Origin: a virus
Reading direction: 5' to 3' (one strand)
DNA: 64,000 nt
IMG/VR virus record: IMGVR_UViG_3300006903_000012
Shown here in pieces: positions 35,930-54,432 of this stretch. Positions within the stretch are counted from its first letter, which is position 1, and every line of letters begins with the position of its first letter. The translations under genes and the position numbers were made by a program. The notes under the pieces are model-generated. The model had not been told where the DNA came from, ran no database searches, and saw only the letters and a program-made list of their open reading frames with translations.

Positions 35930-36680
35930 AATAAAAATATTTCTGTTAAATGCTTCTAATATCACCGGCGGTCCGCAATAGAAAGAAACCCCAATCTCGT
36001 AAGGTTAAGAAGAACTATCGCGTAGCCTTACCCTTCCAGTTTATTTTCGTAACCCATAGTTCCTAGCATCCTACCCGGATAGATCACAGTTACCTGTGCC
36101 CCTATCAATGGCAGTTATAGGATCGAGTTTTTCAACCAGAACAGATTGGCAGCTGACCAGACTGATCTAGCTCATGCTATTGGGTCCTGTCCATGAGCTA
36201 CGGCTGAATTGTTTATCTAAATACTATCTGGGTGTCTTACACCTTGCGGAATATTTATTCGGTATATTGTTCCCTCGATCTTAATCGAGTTTTGCTAGAG
36301 AACCATCGTCCCAGTTACATTCACAATGTTTATCGGCTCTCACCAGGAAGGCTTGTCTTATTGGCTTGCTGTCCAGATGCTTCTTGCATCGCCATCGCAG
36401 GCGACATCTGGGACTTGTCAATTCAAGTTCTGACTCTGGGCCGGCCATTATTCCGCTCACCTTGCTAGTCTGTCTTCGTTATTAATCTCGTTTCAAGATT
36501 TCATAACTTACTCGGTTGCGCGCCGAGACCAGACCGCAGATAGTAATGTTATTTAGTTGTTATTACTTAATTCCCAATTATCGAACATCCCGTTCCCAGG
36601 CGACCAGTGAAGCGGGAGGTATATGCGGCTTGCGCACACATATGCTTCACAACCAACGCAGTTCATTTCTTGTTATCACA
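35930..36680 (-). other. ORF-less ~750-nt structured region (element B) containing at least two degenerate group-I-like ribozyme cores
   Basis: There is no minus ORF of 60 aa or more. Module 1 (about 36600-36400) has CUCGG-cgcgcaa-CCGAGUAAG (36527-36511), a P6-like GUUAU...AUAAC, CAGACUAG (36472-36465), AGAGUCAGAACUUG (about 36440-36427) and a P9-like hairpin. Module 2 has an 8-bp hairpin AGCUCAUG/CAUGAGCU (36199-36169) followed by AGAUCAGUCUGG (about 36168-36157). Confidence 0.5.
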
Positions 36681-37633
36681 AAGGCTCTTTATCCTTTGTT
36701 TCTATATGTCACCATATAGTTCAGACTATATCTTCACCCAAAAACAAGGATGGCCCGCTCTCGTGGAAGAATTATTGTCCAAAATAAGGACTCACTTCTA
36801 GTCGTTACACCTTCAAGCAGTTTTCACTGCGAGCTTGGCTCGGTATTGCCTTATAAAGGTTTTCACCGACTTCACGGGCTTTATACGCGGCAGCTGCGAT
36901 GATCTTTTAAACCCTCTGTATCTCGGATCAAATTTTGCATGAATTTTTGAATGACAGCTCATGCAGACAGTAACAAGATTTTCTTTTGAATGATTATCTT
37001 TACCAAAATCAATATGATGAACCCTAAGAAGCTTCTTGGATGAACAAAGAACGCACTTATAACCATCTCGTTCTTTAATTCGTTTCTGAACCTTACCATT
37101 CCAACCAGGAGCATAGCCAACCAAAGAACCGTGCCCGTGTCGAAACCAGTGGTGTTTCTTTCCTCGATGAACATTCGGACTAGCTCGTAAAAGTTCCGAA
37201 TGTGCCTCCCTTTCTTTTGGATCATCAAACCTATTTGGTCTATACTTACAGACACACGACTTACAAAATTTAGCAGTTCTAGATTTTATCTGTTTTCCGC
37301 AATCTTTACAGAACCTTGGTTTTACAAGTTTCTTTTGCCTGCCAAATGATCTAGCATATTTAGCAAATTCAGAACCGTGAGGGAGTTGGTCTCCTGCTAA
37401 ATATTTTCTATAACAAGGCCGGCAATAACCAGTTTTTGATTTTCCGTAAGGCGGATTACTTTTATTCAGCTTAGTTTTACAAACCTTACACCTAGGACGA
37501 ATCTTTTCTTTACAGACAGGACAAAGATAAGCCCGTGGGTTTATCTTTCGATGCTTGCATCTAGGACATACTTTTTTGTAATTGTGCGCCATTCCGGCAT
37601 CCTTTGTTACTATCAAAACAGAGATAAAAACAT
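36681..37633 (-). mobile_element. Group I intron-like element carrying an HNH endonuclease ORF, immediately 3' of the capsid stop codon (I8); boundaries unresolved
   Basis: Minus-strand core has UCGGUGAAAACC...AAUACCGAG (about 36880-36840), GUGUAACGACUAGAAG (about 36813-36798), GAAGAUAUAGUCUGAAC (about 36735-36719) and the P9 hairpin CUAUAUGGUGACAUAUAG. This is the same consensus as the capsid introns. Confidence 0.65.
36813..37616 (-). CDS. HNH homing endonuclease with N-terminal CxxC zinc-ribbon repeats (probable start at the ATG giving MAHNYKK...)
   Basis: Contains CVLCSSKKLLRVHHIDFGKDNHSKENLVTVCMSCHSKIH (HNH motif) and several CPRC/CPVC/CKVC pairs. The 3' end overlaps the ribozyme P4-P7 region. 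Confidence 0.8.
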   Translation of the reverse strand: MIVTKDAGMAHNYKKVCPRCKHRKINPRAYLCPVCKEKIRPRCKVCKTKLNKSNPPYGKSKTGYCRPCYRKYLAGDQLPHGSEFAKYARSFGRQKKLVKPRFCKDCGKQIKSRTAKFCKSCVCKYRPNRFDDPKEREAHSELLRASPNVHRGKKHHWFRHGHGSLVGYAPGWNGKVQKRIKERDGYKCVLCSSKKLLRVHHIDFGKDNHSKENLVTVCMSCHSKIHAKFDPRYRGFKRSSQLPRIKPVKSVKTFIRQYRAKLAVKTA

Positions 37634-37855
37634 CTACTGTATTATATCATATTCTACCGCGTAAACTTCAAAAGATATTGCCGTACACCCGGGCATCAAG
37701 TCCTTGAAACTGAGCGGGGTCTGTGTTGATTTGTAAACCAGCGGTTCACCGTTGTGGAACACACGCAACGGATAAACCGTCGAACTAAACGTCTTATCAC
37801 CCACCGCCGTCGCCGGGTACCGGAAGTCAGGCACCAGGATCAAGCGACCGATAGA
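37634..37855 (-). CDS. Major capsid protein, predicted exon 8 of 8 (SIGRLILVPDFRYPATAV...YAVEYDIIQ*)
   Basis: The track ORF 37634..37843 starts at an internal TTG. The frame is open upstream to a G (37856; alternative 37865) that can serve as the terminal G of intron I7. Confidence 0.6.
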   Translation of the reverse strand, partial: SIGRLILVPDFRYPATAVGDKTFSSTVYPLRVFHNGEPLVYKSTQTPLSFKDLMPGCTAISFEVYAVEYDIIQ

Positions 37856-38287
37856 CGTGTCTATCGCATCCTTTATTTGTTATCACTCAAAAAATAATGA
37901 GTGAGCGCAAGCATTTCTGTTGCACTCTGCAACTTATCATTTGTTGCAGAACAGACTATATCATATTCCGGAACAACCCGGAACTCGCCCTCTTAGTCGT
38001 TACACATTTAGGATAGTCGAGATTTATTTAGGACCGAACCACAAAATGGACAATAAGTTACTGGAACTCCATAGCAGAATTCTTTATCTGATAAAGTTAA
38101 GAACCAAACATCAGATAATTTTTCAATAGCCGCATCTGGAACCTTATCTTTACAAACATGTGTCTCAGTAATCTCATCTTCCCACATTCTCTAACTATCT
38201 CCTTTAGCTCGGTGTTATCATTTCAGACTTCCACCGAATTCGAGCGATTTGCACACAACCATTACTGATTGTGGGGCCTAAAAATTA
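37856..38287 (-). mobile_element. Group I intron I7 in the capsid gene (with a 59-aa ORF in the P6 region)
   Basis: The minus strand begins UAAUUUUUAGGCC (P1 with exon GGCU, U-G at 38288). P2 is CACAAUCAGUAAUGGUUGUG. The core has UUCGGUGGAAG...AACACCGAG, GUGUAACGACUAAGAGGG, P8 GUUCCGGGUUGUUCCGGAAU, and AUGAUAUAGUCUG, with P9 CUGCAAC...GUUGCAG. Confidence 0.8.
38008..38187 (-). CDS. Intron-borne small ORF (59 aa) MWEDEITETHVCKDKVP...YCPFCGSVLNKSRLS, Zn-ribbon-like
   Basis: Hand-translated (below the track cut-off). ATG at 38187 has an AAAGGAG RBS about 10 nt upstream; there are C-x-n-CxxC cysteines. Confidence 0.4.
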   Translation of the reverse strand: MWEDEITETHVCKDKVPDAAIEKLSDVWFLTLSDKEFCYGVPVTYCPFCGSVLNKSRLS

Positions 38288-38372
38288 AGCCAAAACAAAG
38301 CCGGGAACAATCTGCCCGTCTTTCTGTTGGATGATTTGCATGATGGGATGAGTTGAGCCGAGCTGAGTTGCG
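38288..38372 (-). CDS. Major capsid protein, predicted exon 7 ((I)ATQLGSTHPIMQIIQQKDGQIVPGFVLA)
   Basis: 85 nt between the terminal G of I6 (38373) and the U-G splice site of I7 (38288). Its first nt completes the AT left by exon 6, and an in-frame UAA follows directly in the intron. Confidence 0.55.
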
Positions 38373-39447
38373 CCCAAACTTAAATATCCCTTCTTTCAAT
38401 CGCTCTAGCATCACTGCTAGGATTAGACTATACCTTCATCCACAAACATTATGGATGTCTGCGTGTTGCAGGTATTTTATATTTGGCTTCGAATTTTTTA
38501 ATTTTTTCAATAAGTTTAGATTCATTTTTCAAATCATCTGTTCGAAGAATAAGAAGTTTGTATCCTCTAAGTCGATAATCCTTGTTTCTTTTCTTGTCAC
38601 GTTCAAAACTTTCTTCTCGACTATGCCAATAGTTACCATCATATTCAATAATCAGGTTATGCGTTCGGTGAACAAAATCAGGTACATGTCCCGCTACCCA
38701 GACCTTGCCCGAACCAACGAAACGATAATTGAATTTATGTTCTTTAAGGATACCTAACAACTTCTTTTCGTGTGAGTTCGCATGCCGTCGACTGCTACCC
38801 ACAATCTTCTTAGCAAACTCGATAATCTCCTCAGGCGATTTCCGAGACCAAGTTTTACTAAAACTGGCCGCTCGTTTTCTGGAAATGTCATCGTTACCCC
38901 AATTAGCTGCGTACATTTTTACCCAATTTTCAGGATCCGATAACCATTCAGTAGTTTGTATTGATTTTAGTTGACTGAAAGCTTCCAACTCACTAGGAGA
39001 TTTTGAATACCAAGATTTTAGAAAAGCTGCAACCCTTCTTTCTCTCACATCTGGATTATCATAGTTATTTTTCCTAAGTTTTTCTTGAAACTCAGGATCG
39101 GTATGATTTTCCGACATGATTTTGGATCGCAACTTCCTAAATTTTGGAGTTTGCTTAGATTCTCGCATCTTCTTTCTATAAACAGGGTCTTTAAACTTTT
39201 CTGACATTACCTTTCGCATTTTCTTCCGAAATGCTTCTTTCTCGGCTTCAGTCATTCGATCCCATTTAGACAGCTTTTCGCCATTCTTATTTTTCTTAGC
39301 CATAAAAATACCTGCCTCGGATTTCTCCTCAGTCGTTACGGGGCTAAATGTTTGATTACATCAGCTTCCCTCGGTGTTGTCTACTTGAGATTTCACCGAT
39401 ATAGCAGAATTTTACATACCCATTACTGGATAAGGCGACAAAAATTT
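38373..39447 (-). mobile_element. Group I intron I6 in the capsid gene, carrying a Vsr-like endonuclease in P8
   Basis: P1 pairs exon GCGAU (39452-39448) with GUCGC. P2 is UAUCCAGUAAUGGGUA. The core has AUCGGUGAAAUC...AACACCGAGGGAAG, CCCCGUAACGACUGAGGAGAAAUCCGAG, and 3' GAUGAAGGUAUAGUCUAAUC, with P9 CUAGCAGUGAUGCUAG. Confidence 0.8.
38449..39303 (-). CDS. Intron-encoded Vsr-like (PD-(D/E)XK superfamily) homing endonuclease with NUMOD3-like basic repeats (284 aa)
   Basis: The C-terminus GHVPDFVHRTHNLIIEYDGNYWHS resembles the Vsr pattern (PD..........DG.FWH). The N-terminus has repeats of the form ..E.R.K....K. The stop lies inside the P8/J8-7 region. Confidence 0.65.
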   Translation of the reverse strand: MAKKNKNGEKLSKWDRMTEAEKEAFRKKMRKVMSEKFKDPVYRKKMRESKQTPKFRKLRSKIMSENHTDPEFQEKLRKNNYDNPDVRERRVAAFLKSWYSKSPSELEAFSQLKSIQTTEWLSDPENWVKMYAANWGNDDISRKRAASFSKTWSRKSPEEIIEFAKKIVGSSRRHANSHEKKLLGILKEHKFNYRFVGSGKVWVAGHVPDFVHRTHNLIIEYDGNYWHSREESFERDKKRNKDYRLRGYKLLILRTDDLKNESKLIEKIKKFEAKYKIPATRRHP

Positions 39448-39686
39448 ATCGCTTCTAGCGCTTTCGGATGACCAAAGATGTGCGTTGGTTTCGCACACCC
39501 CGCCACCAAAAAGTTGTCGAACTCTTCAATGTCAAAGCTGCCAGTCGGATTTGCATTCACACGCGCGCCGTTAGCGGCCGTGACTTGGGTCGTAATACCA
39601 TCAAAGGCTTTCGAGTTAGTATTGCGATTACCCTTAACGATAGCCCTGTCCCAATATTGAAGCGTTAAAATTTCTTGCAGCTTGAT
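39448..39686 (-). CDS. Major capsid protein, predicted exon 6 (IKLQEILTLQYWDRAIVKGNRNTNSKAFDGITTQVTAANGARVNANPTGSFDIEEFDNFLVAGCAKPTHIFGHPKALEA-)
   Basis: A 239-nt open frame, hand-translated and checked codon by codon. It matches the HK97-family capsid signature as I remember it (....a.i.G......F.G.......p..i..hP....). The start could also be 39680 or 39677. Confidence 0.7.
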
Positions 39687-40023
39687 CTCTTTTCATGGTT
39701 ATCCACTATTACTAGTGGCATGGACTATTCCTTCATCCGCGATTTGCGGAGCCTGCGTATTGCAAGTTACTTATTACTTGCCTCGCCTTTCGGCTCAGTC
39801 TCTACGGGGTCACGAAGACTTCCCTCGGAATTATCCATCTTATGATAATGGATTTTATCTTTCTCAATAGTAAGATAATCAAAAACAATCTCATTCTCAG
39901 AAAGATATTTTTCAATGTCTAAAAGTTGATTAGTTGTTAGCATAAGTTTGGACTTATCCGATATGAGCAGGTTATTATTGCAAGCAATTACTCGCTTGCC
40001 AGGCTATCATTGAGATTTCCTTA
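39687..40023 (-). mobile_element. Group I intron I5 in the capsid gene (with a 58-aa ORF through P5-P8)
   Basis: It begins UAAGGAAAUC...AUAGCC (P1 with exon GGGGU, U-G at 40024). P2 is GCAAGCGAGUAAUUGCUUGC. The core has CUCAUAUCGG...UUCCGAGGGAAGUCUUCGUGACCCCGUAGAGACUGAGCCGAAAGGCGAG and GAUGAAGGAAUAGUCCA, with P9 CCACUAGUAAUAGUGG. Confidence 0.75.
39767..39943 (-). CDS. Intron-borne small ORF (58 aa) MLTTNQLLDIEKYLSENEIVFDYLTIEKDKIHYHKMDNSEGSLRDPVETEPKGEASNK
   Basis: Hand-translated, ATG at 39943. It overlaps conserved ribozyme core sequence, so coding is doubtful. Confidence 0.3.
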   Translation of the reverse strand: MLTTNQLLDIEKYLSENEIVFDYLTIEKDKIHYHKMDNSEGSLRDPVETEPKGEASNK

Positions 40024-40047
40024 ACCCCCATTACTTGAACGCAAGTT
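40024..40047 (-). CDS. Major capsid protein, predicted micro-exon 5 (NLRSSNGG)
   Basis: 24 nt between the G at 40048 (1 nt after the I4 P9 hairpin) and the U-G splice site at 40024, in frame, followed by an intron-initial UAA. Confidence 0.4.
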
Positions 40048-40954
40048 CCCATCTATTACTAGATGGCTTAGACTATACCTTCAAAGGCCGCGTATTATCA
40101 AGACAAAATAAAAGTCTCGATCTCGGATTTCTCCTCAGTCGTTACGGGGTCAAACTTTTACAAGTCGACTTCCCTCGGTATTACCCTCGTCTTCAGCGGT
40201 CGGGTTTCACCGATATGAGCGGCGTGCCGGGCCATTTCTTATTTTCCGATAAAGGCCGGAAAGCTAATTTTCTGCTTCCTGCTTCCGATCAATTTCTGCA
40301 TCACTTTCTCATCGAAGCTTTTTATCTTATCAGCTACCTGCCCAATATTTTTTAACTCTTCAGCCCAAAGAATCAGAACCGAAAATCCTTGCTTTTTGAT
40401 ATACTCAATACGCTTCACATCATAGCACCGCATTTTTCCATCTTTCCTATGATGGGTATACCCAAAAACATCGATAACAGCTTTAGCGTCCACTCGACAA
40501 AAATCAGGGCAGAATCTGCCAATCATTAGTCGACCATTCCCAACATACTCATACGGCAGATCCATCAATTTTAGAATATCCCGCACTTGCTGTTCGGGTA
40601 ATGATAACGGACGATTCCACAACGAGCTAGAAAGTCTTTCAGCACCATAAGTCGGATCTGTCTTATACAAAATTCTAGACTTCTTCCTTGCCTTCTTGGC
40701 GGCCTTACTTCTAACATCAGTTGTTAAGTGAGCTAGCCCGGTTTTCTCAAAAAGACCCTGCTTCATTCTTATTGAGTGTTCCTTACCCTGTTTAGCTGTT
40801 TTCTTTTTTCCTTCGGGTGTAGCATGATACAACTTCTTTGACTTTGAAATCTTCTTTGCGACTGCTTCACGTTCCTTTGCTGAACGGTTCTTCCAAAGTC
40901 TTTTTGCAGCTATTGAACATTTAATGCCTTTACTGGTCTTTTGCATATAGAATT
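40048..40954 (-). mobile_element. Group I intron I4 in the capsid gene, carrying a Vsr-like endonuclease upstream of P3
   Basis: Proposed P1 pairs exon GGUU (U-G at 40955) with GACC. After the ORF comes a full core with CUCAUAUCGGUGAAACCC...AAUACCGAGGGAAGUCGAC, CCCCGUAACGACUGAGGAGAAAUCCGAG, P8 AUCGAGAC...GUCUUGAU, and GAAGGUAUAGUCUAAG, with P9 CCAUCUAGUAAUAGAUGG. Confidence 0.8.
40239..40946 (-). CDS. Intron-encoded Vsr-like homing endonuclease (235 aa)
   Basis: YEYVGNGRLMIGRFCPDFCRVDAKAVIDVFGYTHH is paralogous to HE 41290..42126 (YEFVGNGKLMIGRYCPDFKRDDYRALIELGGFRH). The N-terminus has basic repeats. Confidence 0.65.
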   Translation of the reverse strand: MQKTSKGIKCSIAAKRLWKNRSAKEREAVAKKISKSKKLYHATPEGKKKTAKQGKEHSIRMKQGLFEKTGLAHLTTDVRSKAAKKARKKSRILYKTDPTYGAERLSSSLWNRPLSLPEQQVRDILKLMDLPYEYVGNGRLMIGRFCPDFCRVDAKAVIDVFGYTHHRKDGKMRCYDVKRIEYIKKQGFSVLILWAEELKNIGQVADKIKSFDEKVMQKLIGSRKQKISFPAFIGK

Positions 40955-41249
40955 AACCCCATCAAGTTGCGTACTGAGCTGCGAAATACCAAGCCCTTGA
41001 ATCCGGGCCACCGCAATCGAATGGCGGATTTCTTCGTTCGTCAAACTTTTCTTCCCGCCAATATACCGGCGGGTCTGACTCTTATTCGACCCATCGTGAG
41101 TATATTCCTCAGGACAAGAACCAGGGTCGAAGAAACCTTGATAAGTTGCGCCGTCACCACTGAAGTCTAGCGTAGTCATTTCACGCCAAAGATCAGCTTG
41201 GTAATCAGTCACAACTTCTGGAAGAACTCTCCAGTTCGTGATTTCTTCG
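40955..41249 (-). CDS. Major capsid protein, predicted exon 4 ((I)EEITNWRVLPEVVTDYQADLWREMTTLDFSGDGATYQGFFDPGS...GISQLSTQLDGV); the 5' end may be 41261 or 41264
   Basis: This is most of track ORF 40910..41254 (whose TTG start is an artefact). It ends at the phase-0 GTT (40957-40955). The three possible acceptor Gs are 41250, 41262 and 41265. Confidence 0.55.
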
Positions 41250-42270
41250 CACAACGTTAAGCATCATTTTCAGTTACCTGAAAGATAGACTATACCTTCA
41301 TCCTCTTTCGAGGAGCTCTGCGTATTACCGTATTGGTTTCTTTTAGTCGTTCCGACTTTTGTATCCTCTTATCAAAAATCAATAATTTAACCGCTAAGGA
41401 TTCCAAATCTTGTAATTCATCTTCATCGATAACTAAAGTCTGATATCCTTGAGATTTTATGTACTCAGTTCTTTTCTCAACTCGATCTCTCAGCTTTTTG
41501 GTCTTCTGATATGCCTTATGCCGAAAGCCACCTAGCTCAATCAAGGCGCGATAATCGTCTCTCTTAAAATCAGGACAATACCGTCCAATCATCAGTTTAC
41601 CATTACCAACAAATTCATAAGGTAATCCCAGTAGCTGTAAAAACGATTCAAGTTGGATCTCAATTCTGGACATCGAGCGCTTATTTAGAATTTTAGAAAC
41701 AGTATCAGCATGAACATCGCAAGATTTGTAATGCTCGTTTATTGATTTCTTAAACTTCTTCCTTCGAACAAGTCCGCCAATTTTCCAAATTTTCTTCTGT
41801 ATCTCAGATAGATACTTCCGATGAGATGCTGTTCTGACAGTTTTTCGTAGCGCTGTAGTTCTTCGTTTTCGTATTTTGGGGTCTGTCCATTCCAATTTTC
41901 TCATCTCACTGCGTCGTTTCTGCTTATCTGGATCAGAGTAATAGATATCTTGTTGTCGCTTTGCTCTTTCTTTTATTTTGCTAGGAGTCAGAATCCGCTT
42001 CTGAGCGACACTCTTCGCTTTATTTACCCTCTTAAGTTCTGACTTAGATATCTTATACTTGTATGCTCGTACTGGCTTTCCTGTTCTTGGACTTGTTCTA
42101 ATTTTATTTTTCCGGCTCAAGGCCAATCCTCCTACTTTACAATACGGTCTCGCCTTTCGGCTCAGTCGTTACGGGGTCACGAAGACTTCCCTCGGTGTTG
42201 TCCCTGTGGGAGTTCACCGATATGAGCAGAGTTGTTTCATGTGTATTACTACACAAGGAGACCTTAGTTG
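41250..42270 (-). mobile_element. Group I intron I3 in the capsid gene, carrying a Vsr-like endonuclease in P8
   Basis: P1 pairs exon GAGAU (42275-42271) with GUCUC. P2 is UGUGUAGUAAUACACA. The core has GCUCAUAUCGGUGAACUCCC...AACACCGAGGGAAGUCUUCGUGACCCCGUAACGACUGAGCCGAAAGGCGAG and 3' GAUGAAGGUAUAGUCUAUC, with P9 UUUCAGGUAACUGAAA. Confidence 0.8.
41290..42126 (-). CDS. Intron-encoded Vsr-like homing endonuclease (278 aa, TTG start with AGGAGG RBS)
   Basis: See 40239..40946. The N-terminal half is Lys/Arg-rich and repeated, and the stop lies inside J8/7-P7'. Confidence 0.65.
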   Translation of the reverse strand: MALSRKNKIRTSPRTGKPVRAYKYKISKSELKRVNKAKSVAQKRILTPSKIKERAKRQQDIYYSDPDKQKRRSEMRKLEWTDPKIRKRRTTALRKTVRTASHRKYLSEIQKKIWKIGGLVRRKKFKKSINEHYKSCDVHADTVSKILNKRSMSRIEIQLESFLQLLGLPYEFVGNGKLMIGRYCPDFKRDDYRALIELGGFRHKAYQKTKKLRDRVEKRTEYIKSQGYQTLVIDEDELQDLESLAVKLLIFDKRIQKSERLKETNTVIRRAPRKRMKV

Positions 42271-42293
42271 ATCTCAGTTGGATCAATCGGTTG
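42271..42293 (-). CDS. Major capsid protein, predicted micro-exon 3 (QPIDPTE + 2 nt); alternative acceptor gives 42271..42287
   Basis: 23 nt between the G at 42294 (after the I2 P9 hairpin CUAUAUC...GAUAUAG) and the U-G splice site at 42271. It leaves phase 2, which exon 4 completes. Confidence 0.4.
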
Positions 42294-42486
42294 CTTTGTT
42301 ATCTATATCTTCACATTCGATATAGGTCAGACTATCTCATCACCCACGTTTGTGGGGCTTCCCTCTTAGTCGTTACACATTGCCCGACTGCAGTTAGCAA
42401 TCTGCTTAGCTCGGTGTTGGCATCACAGCGTTCACCGAATTCGAGAAGTTTTATATCAGTTAATTACTTAACTGTACCCCCAACCG
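42294..42486 (-). mobile_element. Minimal (about 193 nt) ORF-less group I intron I2 in the capsid gene
   Basis: P1 pairs exon ACCCU (42491-42487) with GGGGU. P2 is AGUUAAGUAAUUAACU. The core has CUUCUCGAAUUCGGUGAACGC...AACACCGAGCUAAGC, GUGUAACGACUAAGAGGGAAG, P8 CCCCACAAACGUGGG, and UGAUGAGAUAGUCUGACC. Confidence 0.8.
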
Positions 42487-42522
42487 AGGGTATTGGGCCG
42501 TAAAATCGGTTGGCGTCACATA
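42487..42522 (-). CDS. Major capsid protein, predicted micro-exon 2 (YVTPTDFTAQYP)
   Basis: 36 nt, phase 0 to phase 0, between the G at 42523 and the U-G splice site at 42487. An alternative frame exists, so confidence is low. Confidence 0.4.
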
Positions 42523-43020
42523 CGGTTGTGGACATTTTGTTACTTAGGAAGTGATTCTATAAATTCATCTATTGTTGCGAACTCTGTGTAGCGTCCATTG
42601 ATTATATCTTCGTCTACTTTGGCTTCTTTCTGTTGCCATTCCTTTGTCCAAAACCATTGCTGATCTAACAAAGAACTTGCTAACAACAGACTAGTCCAGA
42701 TACTGACAAGTCGTCCGTTTGATTTCCTCAAAGCTATATAATCAAACAAGAAGACCCTTGGAACCTGAAGCAATCGACCAAACCAAGAACGTCGCTTCAA
42801 TGGATAAACCATAACTTATCTCCTAAGGATCAATCATTTCTGTTGATCTCTTACACTTCTAATTTGTGCAAGTTCAGACTATCTCTTCGTCTTGAAAGAC
42901 GCTATCCGTATAGTCGTTACACATTTAGTTAATTGATTAACTTTTAGCTCGGGATTAGCGTCGCAGCCTTCCCCGAATTAGGATAGATCGCATAAATAAA
43001 TCTTATGCCCCTCACTATTG
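42523..43020 (-). mobile_element. Group I intron I1 in the capsid gene (with a 90-aa ORF 3' of P9)
   Basis: P1 pairs exon UCCUU (U-G at 43021) with GAGGG. P2 is GCAUAAGAUUUAUUUAUGC. P3 is UAUCC/GGAUA. P4 is UUCGGGG...UCCCGAG. The rest of the core is GUGUAACGACUAUACGGAUAG, P8 CGUCUUUCAAGACG and AAGAGAUAGUCUGAAC. Confidence 0.8.
42540..42812 (-). CDS. Intron-borne ORF of unknown function (90 aa)
   Basis: AGGAG RBS 7 nt upstream of the ATG at 42812. No nuclease motif recognised. Confidence 0.45.
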   Translation of the reverse strand: MVYPLKRRSWFGRLLQVPRVFLFDYIALRKSNGRLVSIWTSLLLASSLLDQQWFWTKEWQQKEAKVDEDIINGRYTEFATIDEFIESLPK

Positions 43021-43296
43021 AAGGATCACCGGATCCGTCGCCTTTGTCACCAACCCGCCATCCAACCCTTTGGATTTCAAAATATGCTCTGTCATAGACT
43101 TCACGAGCAACGGATCAGCTTCGAAACCCTGGGCATTCAAATTCTTCAAAACTTGTTTCGTAATTTCGTCAGCGCCGTATGGATCATTCAGATTCACACC
43201 AGCGCTTTTTGCAAACAGACGAGCCGCATCATTGGCCGACATACCAGCCACCGGCAACACTTGCGGCACCGTCAACATATTATCAAAAGCATCCAT
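43021..43296 (-). CDS. Major capsid protein, predicted exon 1 (MDAFDNMLTVPQVLPVAG...KATDPVIL)
   Basis: ATG at 43296 lies 20 nt after the scaffold stop. 92 codons run up to the U-G splice site, and the track ORF stop (43015) lies 2 codons into the intron. Confidence 0.6.
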
Positions 43297-53270: not shown

Positions 53271-53559
53271 TTTGTTACAAAGTCTTACAGACCTTTGAGT
53301 AAGTCATTTCTGCTCACTTCTTGCAATTCCTATTTCTTGCAAGTTCAGACTATATCATTATCTTTCTTCAAGATAGTTCCCACATAGTCGTTACACACTT
53401 CCGCAGATGCGGGTTGGCTCGGTATTTGGACTCTCACCATTCACCGAATTCGAGAACTGTTACAACATCCATTACTGGATGAAGCCGCCAAGTTGACGGG
53501 TTAAGTAGGGGGGCGGTTGCTGTATACTCGTCGGCGCAACCGACTTCTGTACAATAAGT
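53268..53559 (-). mobile_element. Group I intron core (I0) abutting the first codons of the portal ORF; 5' splice site unresolved (the element may include HE 53560..54432)
   Basis: P2 is CAUCCAGUAAUGGAUG (about 53484-53463). The core has UUCUCGAAUUCGGUGAAUGG...AAUACCGAGCCAACC, GUGUAACGACUAUGUGGGAA, P8 UAUCUUGAAGAAAGAUA, and AUGAUAUAGUCUGAAC. P9 is UUGCAAG...AUUGCAAG, followed by two more hairpins. A candidate terminal G is at 53268. Confidence 0.7.
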
Positions 53560-54432
53560 TCATCTGCCATCAATATTTCTCCTGAGAAATAATTTCTCAA
53601 CCCGAGCAACTTGCTCTTTTGTGTTCTTCAAAAGTTTTGTATCCCAAATCACAATAACCTTATACCCTGCATCTTTATATGCTTGAATTCTTTTCTTATC
53701 TCTTGGATTATCTTTCGCATGCCAGTAGACACCAAAAAGCTCAACAATTATTTTCTTATTGGTATTTACAAAATCTGGGTTAAACCTATTTACCCAAAAT
53801 GCACCGTTACCCACATATCTAAAACCAAATCGCTTTAGATATCTCATCAGAAGTTTTTCTGGTTTATTTGGACTTCTAGGTTCTAATCGTTTCTCAATAA
53901 CTGCATCTTTCTCACTATCTGACAAACCATCCCAATATTTTCTGAGTGATTTAGAAAGTTTATCTGACCTGAGTTGCTTAGCTTTCCTTGGTGTACGCAA
54001 CCAAGTTTCGGTAACAGATTGCGAAATCTTTTTAGCTATTTCTTGTTCTTCCTCGGCAGTTCGTCTTTTGTGTACTCGCTTAATCGCTTTCGACAAACTT
54101 TTACGAAATTCAGCATCACGCTCAGGAGTAAAGTTTCTTCTGGCTTCCGCTGATTTCCTACCAATTCGTTGTCTTTCTTCTATCGGTACCTTAGCATGTC
54201 TTTTCTTTTGAATCCTTGAAATTCGAGCACAAACTTCGGCAGAGTATTTATTGCCCTTGTTGGGCGATGGTCGACCCAAATTCTGGACAGACAGCAGAAA
54301 CTTAGTCTCATCACTCATCACTCGACCGTTGTGATGATTGATAAATCGTCTTCCAAAATTCGCTCGTTCACCACATCCACATAGACACAACGGTCCTTTT
54401 TTAGATTTAGACTTTTGTTTTCGGCCTGCCAT
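53560..54432 (-). CDS. Vsr-like homing endonuclease with NUMOD3-like repeats (290 aa), adjacent to or within intron I0
   Basis: The C-terminus RYVGNGAFWVNRFNPDFVNTNKKIIVELFGVYWHAKDN matches the family. The N-terminus has CLCGCG plus repeats of S/T.E.......I....K type (SDETKFLLSVQ, SAEVCARISRIQKK, TPERDAEFRKSLSKAIK, TAEEEQEIAKKISQS). Confidence 0.65.
   Translation of the reverse strand: MAGRKQKSKSKKGPLCLCGCGERANFGRRFINHHNGRVMSDETKFLLSVQNLGRPSPNKGNKYSAEVCARISRIQKKRHAKVPIEERQRIGRKSAEARRNFTPERDAEFRKSLSKAIKRVHKRRTAEEEQEIAKKISQSVTETWLRTPRKAKQLRSDKLSKSLRKYWDGLSDSEKDAVIEKRLEPRSPNKPEKLLMRYLKRFGFRYVGNGAFWVNRFNPDFVNTNKKIIVELFGVYWHAKDNPRDKKRIQAYKDAGYKVIVIWDTKLLKNTKEQVARVEKLFLRRNIDGR

What the first reader, a model, noticed from the sequence alone, without database searches (positions are those of the whole stretch)
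38373..42270. Intron subfamilies with near-identical core blocks suggest intragenomic spread within one gene
Plus-strand 42150-42198 (I3) and 39782-39829 (I5) share CTCGCCTTTCGGCTCAGTC(GT/TC)TACGGGGTCACGAAGACTTCCCTCGG with only 2 substitutions. Plus-strand 40121-40150 (I4) and 39316-39345 (I6) share CTCGGATTTCTCCTCAGTCGTTACGGGG exactly. I1, I2, I7, I0 and I8 share GTGTAACGACTA and GATATAGTCTGA(A/C)C variants. Their endonuclease ORFs sit in different ribozyme positions: in P8 for I3 and I6, but upstream of P3 for I4, I8 and probably I0. This looks like repeated transposition or ectopic homing of one intron lineage, with independent endonuclease gain or loss, inside a single phage.
Basis: seen in the sequence. 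Interest (0 to 1): 0.6.

Follow-up and report, generated by a model that had tools for sequence, protein, structure and literature searches.

The report
Old intron families crowding a capsid gene
The near-identical blocks are real, but they are the conserved catalytic core of self-splicing intron families that are common in uncultured phages. The copies in this phage are old, not recent duplicates, and four related phages show that such introns have come and gone at about twenty sites of this one capsid gene.

Summary
The sequence observation holds. I3 and I5 share a 47-nt block with 2 mismatches, and I4 and I6 share an exact 28-mer. These blocks are ribozyme core: P4'-P6-J6/7-P7 plus a small GAAA-capped helix, P7.1. 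I3's version of the 26-nt P7+P7.1 part recurs exactly in 36 of 98 metagenomic matches, a few from relative relR. One unrelated contig matches I3's whole block with 3 mismatches.

The copies are not recent duplicates. Outside the block they are 60-75% identical, and their endonucleases are 22-42% identical. A clade of only this phage's four copies is rejected (p-AU 0.008-0.034), and I3+I5 were never sisters.

The wider idea survives at lineage level. Four closer relatives (62-88% capsid identity) carry 2 to at least 13 introns at about 20 different sites, none universal. Ten distant relatives have none. Same-site introns and their endonucleases are orthologous (I4: 99/98 support, 62% aa). Some sister introns sit at different sites (I5 and relR-R6).

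The I4/I6 identity is best read as a short gene conversion.

The endonuclease ORFs of I3 and I6 lie in P7.2, not P8. The ORF near I0 is free-standing.

Earlier notes of this scan, on other DNA, also describe intron families invading capsid genes.

The parts
36567..43296 (-). Major capsid protein gene. It has nine exons: 43296-43022, 42532-42487, 42293-42271, 41261-40956, 40026-40024, 39693-39448, 38396-38288, 37870-37656 and 36663-36567. Spliced, it is 1320 nt (439 codons plus stop).
   Evidence: tblastn of uninterrupted relatives. Junctions obey the U|...G| rule and keep the frame. The alignment to relL is gap-free across the I1, I2, I3, I6, I7 and I8 junctions. A relative matches PHROG 'major head protein' at E 7e-5.
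42533..43021 (-). I1: subfamily A1 group I intron, 489 nt. A 90-aa ORF (42812-42540) with no known family lies in the 3' tail after P9.
   Evidence: Rfam 55.4 bits; junctions; no Pfam or PHROG hit for the ORF. The site is empty in relE, relN and relL.
42294..42486 (-). I2: subfamily A1 intron, 193 nt, no ORF.
   Evidence: Rfam 52.4 bits. The site is also occupied in relE.
41262..42270 (-). I3: subfamily B intron (IA-like, with P7.1 and P7.2), 1009 nt. The DUF559 endonuclease ORF (42126-41290) sits in the P7.2 loop, and its stop codon lies in J8/7.
   Evidence: The site is empty in relE, relN and relL.
40027..40955 (-). I4: subfamily B intron, 929 nt in the preferred model (alternative 40964-40049). 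The DUF559 ORF (40946-40239) lies between the 5' splice site and the guide sequence in front of P3. The core has no P8 hairpin.
   Evidence: The relE orthologue groups with it at 99/98 support, has a HEG 62% identical over 235 aa, and also lacks P8.
39694..40023 (-). I5: subfamily B intron, 330 nt in the preferred model (alternative 40042-39694). It has a short P7.2 and a 58-aa ORF (39943-39767) inside a P5 insertion. It is separated from I4 by a putative 3-nt micro-exon (40026-40024).
38397..39447 (-). I6: subfamily B intron, 1051 nt. The DUF559 ORF (39303-38449) sits in the P7.2 loop. Its P7.1 is identical to that of I4.
   Evidence: Same-site orthologues exist in relR (R5) and relE, whose HEG is 53% identical.
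37871..38287 (-). I7: subfamily A1 intron, 417 nt, with a 59-aa Cys-rich ORF (38187-38008) in P6.
   Evidence: The site is occupied in relE and empty in relR, relN and relL.
36664..37655 (-). I8: A-like intron, 992 nt, with an extra insert after P7. The HNH endonuclease ORF (37616-36813) starts before P3 and reads into P3-P6.
   Evidence: Rfam 58.9 bits; Pfam HNH; PHROG HNH at 1.3e-17. The same-site intron in relR has a core 74% identical and no ORF.
53271..53496 (-). I0: subfamily A1 intron, 226 nt, no ORF. It lies in the portal gene after a 74-nt first exon.
   Evidence: Rfam 54.7 bits
53560..54432 (-). Free-standing DUF559/Vsr + NUMOD3 endonuclease gene directly upstream of the portal start, about 70 nt from the I0 insertion site.
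   Evidence: Pfam; sequence; portal N-termini of relatives

Best explanation
The blocks are the most constrained part of the ribozyme: P4', P6, the J6/7-P7 'R' element and, in I3-I6, a 3-bp GAAA-capped helix P7.1. They belong to at least two group I intron families (A: I0, I1, I2, I7, with I8 a variant; B: I3-I6) that are widespread in environmental phage DNA.

These families colonised the major capsid gene of one phage lineage. That colonisation happened around or before the split of the five relatives compared here. Since then introns have turned over site by site.

Shown: same-site introns are inherited or home together with their own endonuclease; occupancy is patchy across about 20 sites; endonucleases sit in different loops or are absent at the same site.

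Inferred: occasional movement to new sites of the same gene (I5 and relR-R6 are sisters at different sites); spread between co-infecting relatives driven by the DUF559 and HNH endonucleases; and short gene conversion between copies in one genome, which gave I6 the P7.1 of I4.

The insertion mechanism at new sites is unknown. It could be relaxed endonuclease specificity or reverse splicing.
For: The core blocks are family consensus. The P4'-P6-R pattern occurs in 53 other viral contigs, and L020 carries I5's 32-nt part exactly. The R+P7.1 pattern occurs in 96 metagenomic stretches. I3's exact 26-mer is found in 36 of the 98 matches, a few of them from relative relR, and the P7.1 pair covaries across nine variants. 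L068 matches I3's 47-mer with 3 mismatches, against 2 for I5. The subfamily A signature occurs in 83 viral contigs.

The copies are old. Similarity between introns is confined to the core at 59-91%. Core identity among the 10 lineage copies is 58-78%, against a best external match of 66-75%. HEG paralogues are 22-42% identical.

Orthology by site. I4+relE-I4 has 99/98 support with a HEG 62% identical. The I6 HEG is 53% identical to that of relE. I6+R5 has 95/96 or 72/92 support. The I8 core is 74% identical to the same-site intron in relR.

Turnover. relR has at least 13 cores in the last ~280 codons, relE about 9, relN 5, relL 2, and 10 distant relatives 0.

Lineage radiation is allowed: AU p 0.42-0.49 for B and 0.54 for A1.

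Gene conversion. Only the window's I6 has I4's GGA/UCC P7.1. Its orthologues have GCC/GGC (relE) and GUC/GAC (relR), and none of 98 external matches has the GGA/UCC form.
Against: The trees rest on about 180 alignable columns and are unstable. The lineage clade appears in one careful tree (83/85) and nearly in another (13 rows), but not in the quick trees or the G-INS-i tree. By plain identity, external introns are as close as the paralogues.

The shared I4/I6 P7.1 differs from a common external variant by one base pair only, so convergence is possible.

No splicing, cleavage or mobility was observed. No RNA data exist.

Splice sites in the relatives were mapped only at amino-acid resolution, so some neighbouring 'sites' may be one site.
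Confidence: 0.68

Rival explanations
1. One reading: one intron lineage transposed recently within this single phage genome, so I3/I5 and I4/I6 are recent duplicate pairs.
For: A 47-nt block with 2 mismatches and an exact 28-mer. The I4/I6 form of P7.1 is absent from 98 external matches. I4+I6 were sisters in some trees made before relE was added.
Against: Outside the blocks the pairs are 60-75% identical, and P2, P5, P8 and P9 differ. The HEGs are 22-42% identical. I3+I5 were never sisters in any tree. A window-only clade is rejected at p-AU 0.034, 0.008 and 0.025. I4 and I6 have same-site orthologues in relE and relR. I4+I6 dissolves once relE-I4 is added.
Confidence: 0.07
2. Each intron was imported independently from unrelated phages or bacteria that carry the same widespread families. 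There was no radiation within this lineage or gene. The resemblance is only family membership plus structural constraint.
For: External family members are as similar as the paralogues. The lineage clade is not robust to alignment. Both families are abundant elsewhere.
Against: In the careful trees the lineage's 10 B introns form a clade (83/85). After relE is added, the 12 form a group with one intruder. Monophyly is never rejected (p 0.42-0.54). In the window genome eight of the nine introns sit in one 1.3-kb coding sequence, and relatives concentrate theirs in the same gene. Random import does not predict this. Sisters are found at different sites of the same gene (I5+R6 at 92/90 and 86/94).
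Confidence: 0.2

Closest known systems
Mobile group I introns of phage genes (T4 td/nrdB/nrdD; Staphylococcus phage Twort orf142 with three introns; review PMC3984707; the Twort orf142 count is from my own knowledge)
   Same: Compact self-splicing cores with R and S elements. Endonuclease ORFs lie in peripheral loops and often read into the core. Spread is by endonuclease-driven homing into intron-less alleles during co-infection.
   Different: There are eight introns in one 1.3-kb coding sequence, and at least 13 in the last two thirds of a relative's gene. Exons are as short as 3-23 nt. About 20 alternative sites are used among five relatives.
Intron-rich capsid gene of a Zeta crAss-like phage (cMAG OLRF01000054; Yutin et al. 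2021, PMC7886860) and intron-rich Jug phages (PMC12880540)
   Same: In uncultured phages, core genes including the capsid gene are fragmented by several group I introns.
   Different: That capsid gene is in five fragments, and that study reports at most 14 introns per genome. Here one gene is in nine fragments and a relative has more. This is a different phage group, and the relationships among copies and sites were analysed here.
Related group I introns at different rDNA sites in fungi, attributed to reverse splicing (Bhattacharya et al. 2005, PMC1299323)
   Same: One intron lineage is found at several sites of one gene, with phylogeny cutting across sites.
   Different: The host is a protein-coding phage gene rich in endonuclease ORFs. 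Sister introns at different sites (I5 and relR-R6) do not share the 5' exon or guide sequence, so the data give no positive support for guide-directed reverse splicing.
I-Bth0305I, the EDxHD/Vsr-like intron endonuclease in recA of Bacillus phage 0305phi8-36 (PMC3239194; PDB 3R3P)
   Same: An intron-encoded protein with a C-terminal Vsr/DUF559-type nuclease domain behind a basic N-terminal region.
   Different: The direct sequence match is only weak (E 0.59 to 3r3p_A). Catalytic residues and cleavage were not examined.
Collaborative homing: a free-standing endonuclease next to an ORF-less intron (reviewed in PMC3984707)
   Same: I0 has no ORF, and a free-standing DUF559+NUMOD3 gene ends about 70 nt upstream of its insertion site.
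   Different: The endonuclease's target is unknown, and the arrangement was seen in this one genome only.

Membership tests
Group I intron (Rfam RF00028) | Core helices P3-P9 with the conserved R (J6/7-P7) and S (J8/7-P7') elements, recognised by the covariance model | tested here: met
   I0, I1, I2 and I8 score above the gathering score at 52-59 bits. I3-I7 score 18-36 bits, with E from 2e-6 to 0.3, lowered by ORF and P7.1/P7.2 inserts. All align with family members. I4 lacks P8.
Group I intron (Rfam RF00028) | The 5' exon ends in U, wobble-paired in P1; the intron ends in G; removal restores the reading frame | tested here: met
   Junctions chosen under these rules give a 1320-nt open frame. 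The product aligns gap-free with relL across six junctions. The I4/I5 junction has several in-frame solutions.
Group I intron (Rfam RF00028) | Self-splicing of the RNA | not testable with these tools
   No run on record as RNA holds this DNA. The only holder is the source DNA run.
Subgroup IA-like architecture (extra helices P7.1/P7.2 between P7 and the 3' strand of P3) | Two helices inserted after P7 and before the strand that closes P3 | tested here: met
   I3-I6 have a GAAA-capped P7.1 whose base pairs covary across 98 external matches (nine variants). They also have a P7.2 hairpin that carries the ORF in I3 and I6. Subgroup-specific models were not run.
EDxHD / Vsr-like (DUF559) homing endonucleases | Vsr/DUF559 nuclease domain | tested here: met
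   Pfam PF04480: I6 at 7.6e-9, I4 at 5.1e-9, I3 at 5.1e-5; the free-standing ORF at 4e-8, plus Vsr and NUMOD3.
EDxHD / Vsr-like (DUF559) homing endonucleases | Site-specific cleavage of the intron-less allele next to the insertion site | not testable with these tools
   Indirect only: each HEG is orthologous by site between the window and relE (62% and 53% aa), while paralogues are 22-42% identical.
HNH homing endonucleases (I8 ORF) | HNH motif domain | tested here: met
   Pfam PF01844 at 1.4e-4; PHROG 1271 HNH endonuclease at 1.3e-17.
   A window-only clade is rejected (p-AU 0.034, 0.008, 0.025). I3+I5 are never sisters. Peripheral helices and HEGs are diverged.

The most novel reading that the evidence does not exclude
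The capsid gene of this phage lineage may be a natural arena of group I intron transposition. On this reading one or two intron lineages have moved among about twenty sites of a single 440-codon gene. They have built tandem arrays separated by micro-exons of 3-19 nt, exchanged core segments by gene conversion, and swapped endonucleases. This would include a conserved ribozyme type without a P8 helix (I4 and its relE orthologue). That would be the densest and most dynamic set of group I introns known in any protein-coding gene, and a system in which ectopic intron insertion could be studied directly.
Probability: 0.4. Interest if true: 0.8.

Novelty: new variant of a known kind. Interest (0 to 1): 0.6.

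Why it matters
How group I introns reach new sites is an old open question. Homing explains spread to the same site only. Ectopic insertion by reverse splicing, or by sloppy endonuclease cutting, has only circumstantial support (PMC3984707, PMC1299323).

This lineage offers five related capsid genes. They share intron families but occupy largely different sites. Orthologous and paralogous copies can be told apart, and one nearly empty allele (relL) provides natural target sites.

On a practical level, the case shows that near-identical core blocks are poor evidence of recent duplication, because the same blocks recur in unrelated contigs. It also shows that gene callers will shred such capsid genes into unannotated fragments.

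Tried and rejected
- Exact search for the R+P7.1 signature in viral contigs found nothing. This only reflected that collection, because the metagenome scan found 96 stretches.
- The INPHARED phage collection gave only short intron-core matches to Clostridium and Streptococcus phages and no relative of this phage.
- RNA evidence: no RNA holder is listed. Laying the single source DNA run gave no joints and no intron-less alleles.
- I first read I4 and I5 as sharing a 5' exon (AACTT) and guide sequence, which would have pointed to guide-directed insertion or tandem duplication with a 6-nt micro-exon. I dropped this. The frame continues to be conserved 9 nt further in all four relatives. A P1 with a covarying pair exists in the window and relE. 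relE shows that the 'micro-exon' region is the 3' tail of the I4-type intron.
- I first read the missing P8 of I4 as ribozyme decay, with I5 rescuing splicing. I rejected decay because the relE orthologue, which has no I5-type neighbour, has the same P8-less core.
- I4+I6 sisterhood (97/70) did not survive re-alignment or the addition of relE-I4.
- The I1 90-aa ORF has no match to Pfam, PHROGs or any HEG of this set.
- 'Element B modules' of the finding could not be located.
Full report
CONTEXT

The window is the reverse strand of a complete 111,877-bp uncultured phage record with terminal repeats. The only sequencing run that holds it is a rhizosphere metagenome. Rfam's group I intron model matches nine places on the minus strand. 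Four score above the gathering score and five below it. There are no further matches in the genome.

Ten relatives at 46-54% amino-acid identity encode an uninterrupted protein of about 400 residues. One of them matches PHROG 'major head protein' at E 7e-5. Laying these proteins on the window gives nine exon pieces between 43296 and 36567. Choosing junctions so that the 5' exon ends in U and the intron ends in G gives an open frame of 1320 nt. The product aligns without gaps to a nearly intron-less close relative across the I1, I2, I3, I6, I7 and I8 junctions.

The finding therefore concerns eight group I introns in the major capsid gene (I1-I8) plus one in the portal gene (I0).

THE OBSERVATION

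The quoted blocks are present as described:
- I3 and I5 share 47 nt with two mismatches.
- I4 and I6 share an exact 28-mer.
- I0, I1, I2, I7 and I8 share the two quoted motifs.

Mapped on the ribozyme, the I3/I5 block covers the 3' strand of P4, the P6 hairpin, the J6/7-P7 'R' element and a 3-bp helix capped by GAAA. This helix follows P7 directly, so I call it P7.1. The I4/I6 block is the R element plus P7.1. The motifs of the other five introns are the R and S elements that appear in Rfam's own consensus.

I3-I6 (subfamily B) have P7.1 and a second helix, P7.2, in front of the strand that closes P3, which is an IA-like layout. I0, I1, I2 and I7 (A1) lack these helices. I8 is A-like with a different insert after P7.

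THE BLOCKS ARE NOT PRIVATE TO THIS GENOME

- The P4'-P6-R pattern occurs in 53 other viral contigs. L020 carries the 32-nt part of I5's block exactly.
- The R+P7.1 pattern occurs in 96 metagenomic stretches. Among the 98 matches read, 36 carry I3's 26-mer exactly; a few of the 98 come from relR. The two variable pairs of P7.1 covary across nine variants, so the helix is real.
- One unrelated contig (L068) matches I3's whole 47-mer with 3 mismatches, against 2 for I5.
- The I4/I6 form of P7.1 (GGA/UCC) is absent from all 98 matches. It differs from a common external form by a single base pair.
- The A1 signature occurs in 83 other viral contigs.

The similarity exceeds the universal group I consensus, but it is largely the consensus of widespread families.

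THE COPIES ARE OLD

- Between introns, blastn finds only core segments at 59-91% identity.
- Over the alignable core, identity among the 10 subfamily-B copies of this lineage is 58-78%. The best external match for each copy is 66-75%.
- A1 copies are 59-72% identical to each other and 58-66% to externals.
- The three DUF559 endonucleases of I3, I4 and I6 share 22-42% identity over partial lengths.

CLOSER RELATIVES

The intron pattern search and two exon searches brought in four phages whose capsid protein is 62-88% identical to the window's:
- relR: four overlapping contigs, L071, L153, L103 and L120, that tile at 99.8-100%
- relN: L243
- relE: L244
- relL: L247

Their intron content, by approximate window codon:

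| Codon (window intron) | Occupied in |
|---|---|
| ~48 | relN |
| 92 (I1) | window |
| 107 (I2) | window, relE |
| 115 (I3) | window |
| 155 | relE |
| 214 (I4) | window, relE, relN, relR |
| 216 (I5) | window, relR |
| ~219 | relR |
| 228 | relL, relR |
| 298 (I6) | window, relE, relR |
| 301 | relR |
| 334 (I7) | window, relE |
| 371 | relE, relN, relR |
| ~373 | relL, relR |
| 386 | relN |
| 396-398 | relN, relR |
| 402 | relE |
| 406 (I8) | window, relR |
| 416-419 | relE, relR |
| 424 | relR |
| near the C-terminus | relR |

relR is covered only from codon 155 onwards and still has 13 cores. Some of them stand in tandem, separated by exons such as a 19-nt piece that encodes VKEKEI. relL has two introns, and the ten distant relatives have none. 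No site is universal. This rules out 'all sites anciently and uniformly occupied'.

ORTHOLOGY AND PARALOGY

Same-site introns are related along their whole length:
- I4 is 68% identical to the relE intron over 907 nt. The two HEGs are 62% identical over all 235 residues.
- The HEG of I6 is 53% identical to that of relE.
- I7 is 76-79% identical to the same-site intron in relE.
- The I8 core is 74% identical to the same-site intron in relR, which has no HNH ORF.

Endonuclease content varies at a given site. At the I4 site the window and relE carry a HEG in front of P3. relR carries a different HEG (34-38% identity) in P7.2. relN carries none.

TREES

The trees use about 180 core columns, subfamily B and 55 externals.
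- A clade of the window's four copies is rejected (p-AU 0.034, 0.008, 0.025).
- I3+I5 are never sisters.
- I4 joins its relE orthologue at 99/98.
- I6 joins relR-R5, at the same site, at 95/96 or 72/92.
- I5 joins relR-R6, which lies at another site, at 92/90 and 86/94.
- All lineage copies form a clade in one careful tree (83/85), and a 13-row group with one intruder in another. Quick trees and the G-INS-i tree do not recover this grouping.
- Monophyly is never rejected: p 0.42-0.49 for B, and 0.54 for A1.

I read this as moderate support for a radiation within the lineage's capsid gene, and as clear evidence against spread confined to this genome.

MOSAIC CHARACTERS

In the aligned cores the forms of P5, P6 and P7.1 are distributed across copies in conflicting ways. 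I6 alternates between R5 and I4 depending on the alignment. Its orthologues have other P7.1 forms: relE has GCC/GGC and relR-R5 has GUC/GAC. I4 and its relE orthologue share the GA-GAAA-UC core.

A short conversion tract from I4 into I6 within the window's ancestor is the simplest account of the exact 28-mer. Convergence by one compensatory pair cannot be excluded.

ORF POSITIONS

- In I3 and I6 the ORF lies in the P7.2 loop, with an intact P8 after it. I3's stop codon lies in J8/7.
- I4's ORF lies between the 5' splice site and a guide sequence just before P3.
- I8's HNH ORF starts before P3 and reads into P6.
- I1 carries an unassignable 90-aa ORF in its 3' tail. This is the same structural place where relL's codon-228 intron carries a DUF559 gene.
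- I0 has no ORF. The DUF559+NUMOD3 gene upstream ends before the start codon of the first portal exon. That exon reads MADEL...PPPYLTR and matches the YL(T/A)R of relatives' portal N-termini.

THE I4/I5 JUNCTION

My first model had a 6-nt micro-exon. I replaced it for four reasons:
- The frame QLDG(V/I) is conserved 9 nt further in all four relatives, and in intron-less relL it reads QLNG.
- The window and relE share a possible P1 between that exon end and a conserved GGCCCG in front of P3, with one covarying pair.
- relE, which has no I5-type core, carries a 3' tail homologous to the window's sequence after I4's P9.
- I5 has a canonical P1 (GGT|TA with TAGCC) 19 nt further on.

The preferred model is I4 at 40955-40027, a 3-nt exon, and I5 at 40023-39694. 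This gives QLDGVVKEIKLQE, against QLDGVVKEKEIKLQE in relE. Other in-frame models remain possible, and only RNA data can decide.

I4 and its relE orthologue both lack a P8 hairpin. This is conserved, so it is probably not decay.

COMPARISON WITH THE LITERATURE

- Phage group I introns with endonucleases and homing are textbook (PMC3984707).
- Intron-dense phages are known. The capsid gene of a Zeta crAss-like phage is in five fragments, with up to 14 introns per genome (PMC7886860). Jug phages average 18.5 introns per 360-400-kb genome (PMC12880540).
- Related introns at different sites of one gene have been taken as evidence of reverse splicing in fungal rDNA (PMC1299323).
- The DUF559 ORFs resemble the EDxHD/Vsr-like family of I-Bth0305I (PMC3239194; weak match to 3r3p).
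- An intron endonuclease can serve phage-phage competition (PMC11620839), which may help explain why such elements persist.

In the ten searches made I found no report of this density in one gene, of such site turnover, or of such short exons. Earlier notes of this scan on other genomes describe intron families that repeatedly invade capsid genes, and short core-less inserts beside them. I did not test those notes.

LIMITS

There is no RNA or biochemical evidence. The trees are short and sensitive to alignment. The relatives' splice sites were mapped at amino-acid resolution only. relR is a tiling of four contigs from related samples.

Noticed in passing
L071, L153, L103(-), L120(-) (tile into ~5.7 kb): A closer relative's capsid gene (72-88% aa identity) carries at least 13 group I cores in its last ~280 codons. 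They include tandem arrays with coding pieces of about 8-24 codons and a 19-nt micro-exon encoding VKEKEI.
   Followed up: partly
window 53560-54432 (-) and 53271-53496 (-): A free-standing DUF559/Vsr+NUMOD3 endonuclease gene ends just before the portal start codon. This is about 70 nt upstream of the ORF-less intron I0, an arrangement like collaborative homing.
   Followed up: partly
window 40049-40232 (-); L244 2680-2870: The I4-type ribozyme has no P8 hairpin: only about 4 nt lie between the 3' strand of P3 and J8/7. Its orthologue in relE is the same, although the two introns are only 68% identical overall. This may be a conserved P8-less group I core.
   Followed up: partly
window 40015-40048 (-); L244 2866-2895: The motif ATGGGGTTAA stands at the 5' boundary of both I4 and I5. 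The stretch between the two cores is homologous to the 3' tail of the single relE intron. The exon between I4 and I5 may be only 3 nt.
   Followed up: partly
window 42540-42812 (-), 38008-38187 (-), 39767-39943 (-): Three small intron ORFs have no family match: 90 aa in the 3' tail of I1, 59 aa (Cys-rich) in P6 of I7, and 58 aa in a P5 insertion of I5. They could be endonuclease remnants or something else.
   Followed up: partly
L068, L106, L130, L067: Subfamily-B introns with the same P7.1 signature lie on very long metagenomic contigs (998 kb, 700 kb, 576 kb, 242 kb). The family is therefore probably not confined to phages of this size, and may occur in bacterial chromosomes or prophages.
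   Followed up: no
L244 9394-9486: An Rfam RT-17 RNA match (47.1 bits, gathering score 40.4) lies downstream of the head genes in relative relE.
   Followed up: no
L244 5629-6432: In relE another DUF559 gene stands free just after the capsid gene. It is 33% identical to the window's free-standing portal-side endonuclease.
   Followed up: no
window 40956-41010 and 39660-39693 (-): The window's capsid protein and those of its close relatives lack about 15-25 residues of a loop (…GEG.PGG.D…) that the ten distant, intron-less relatives have. This is exactly where the I4/I5 intron cluster sits.
   Followed up: no
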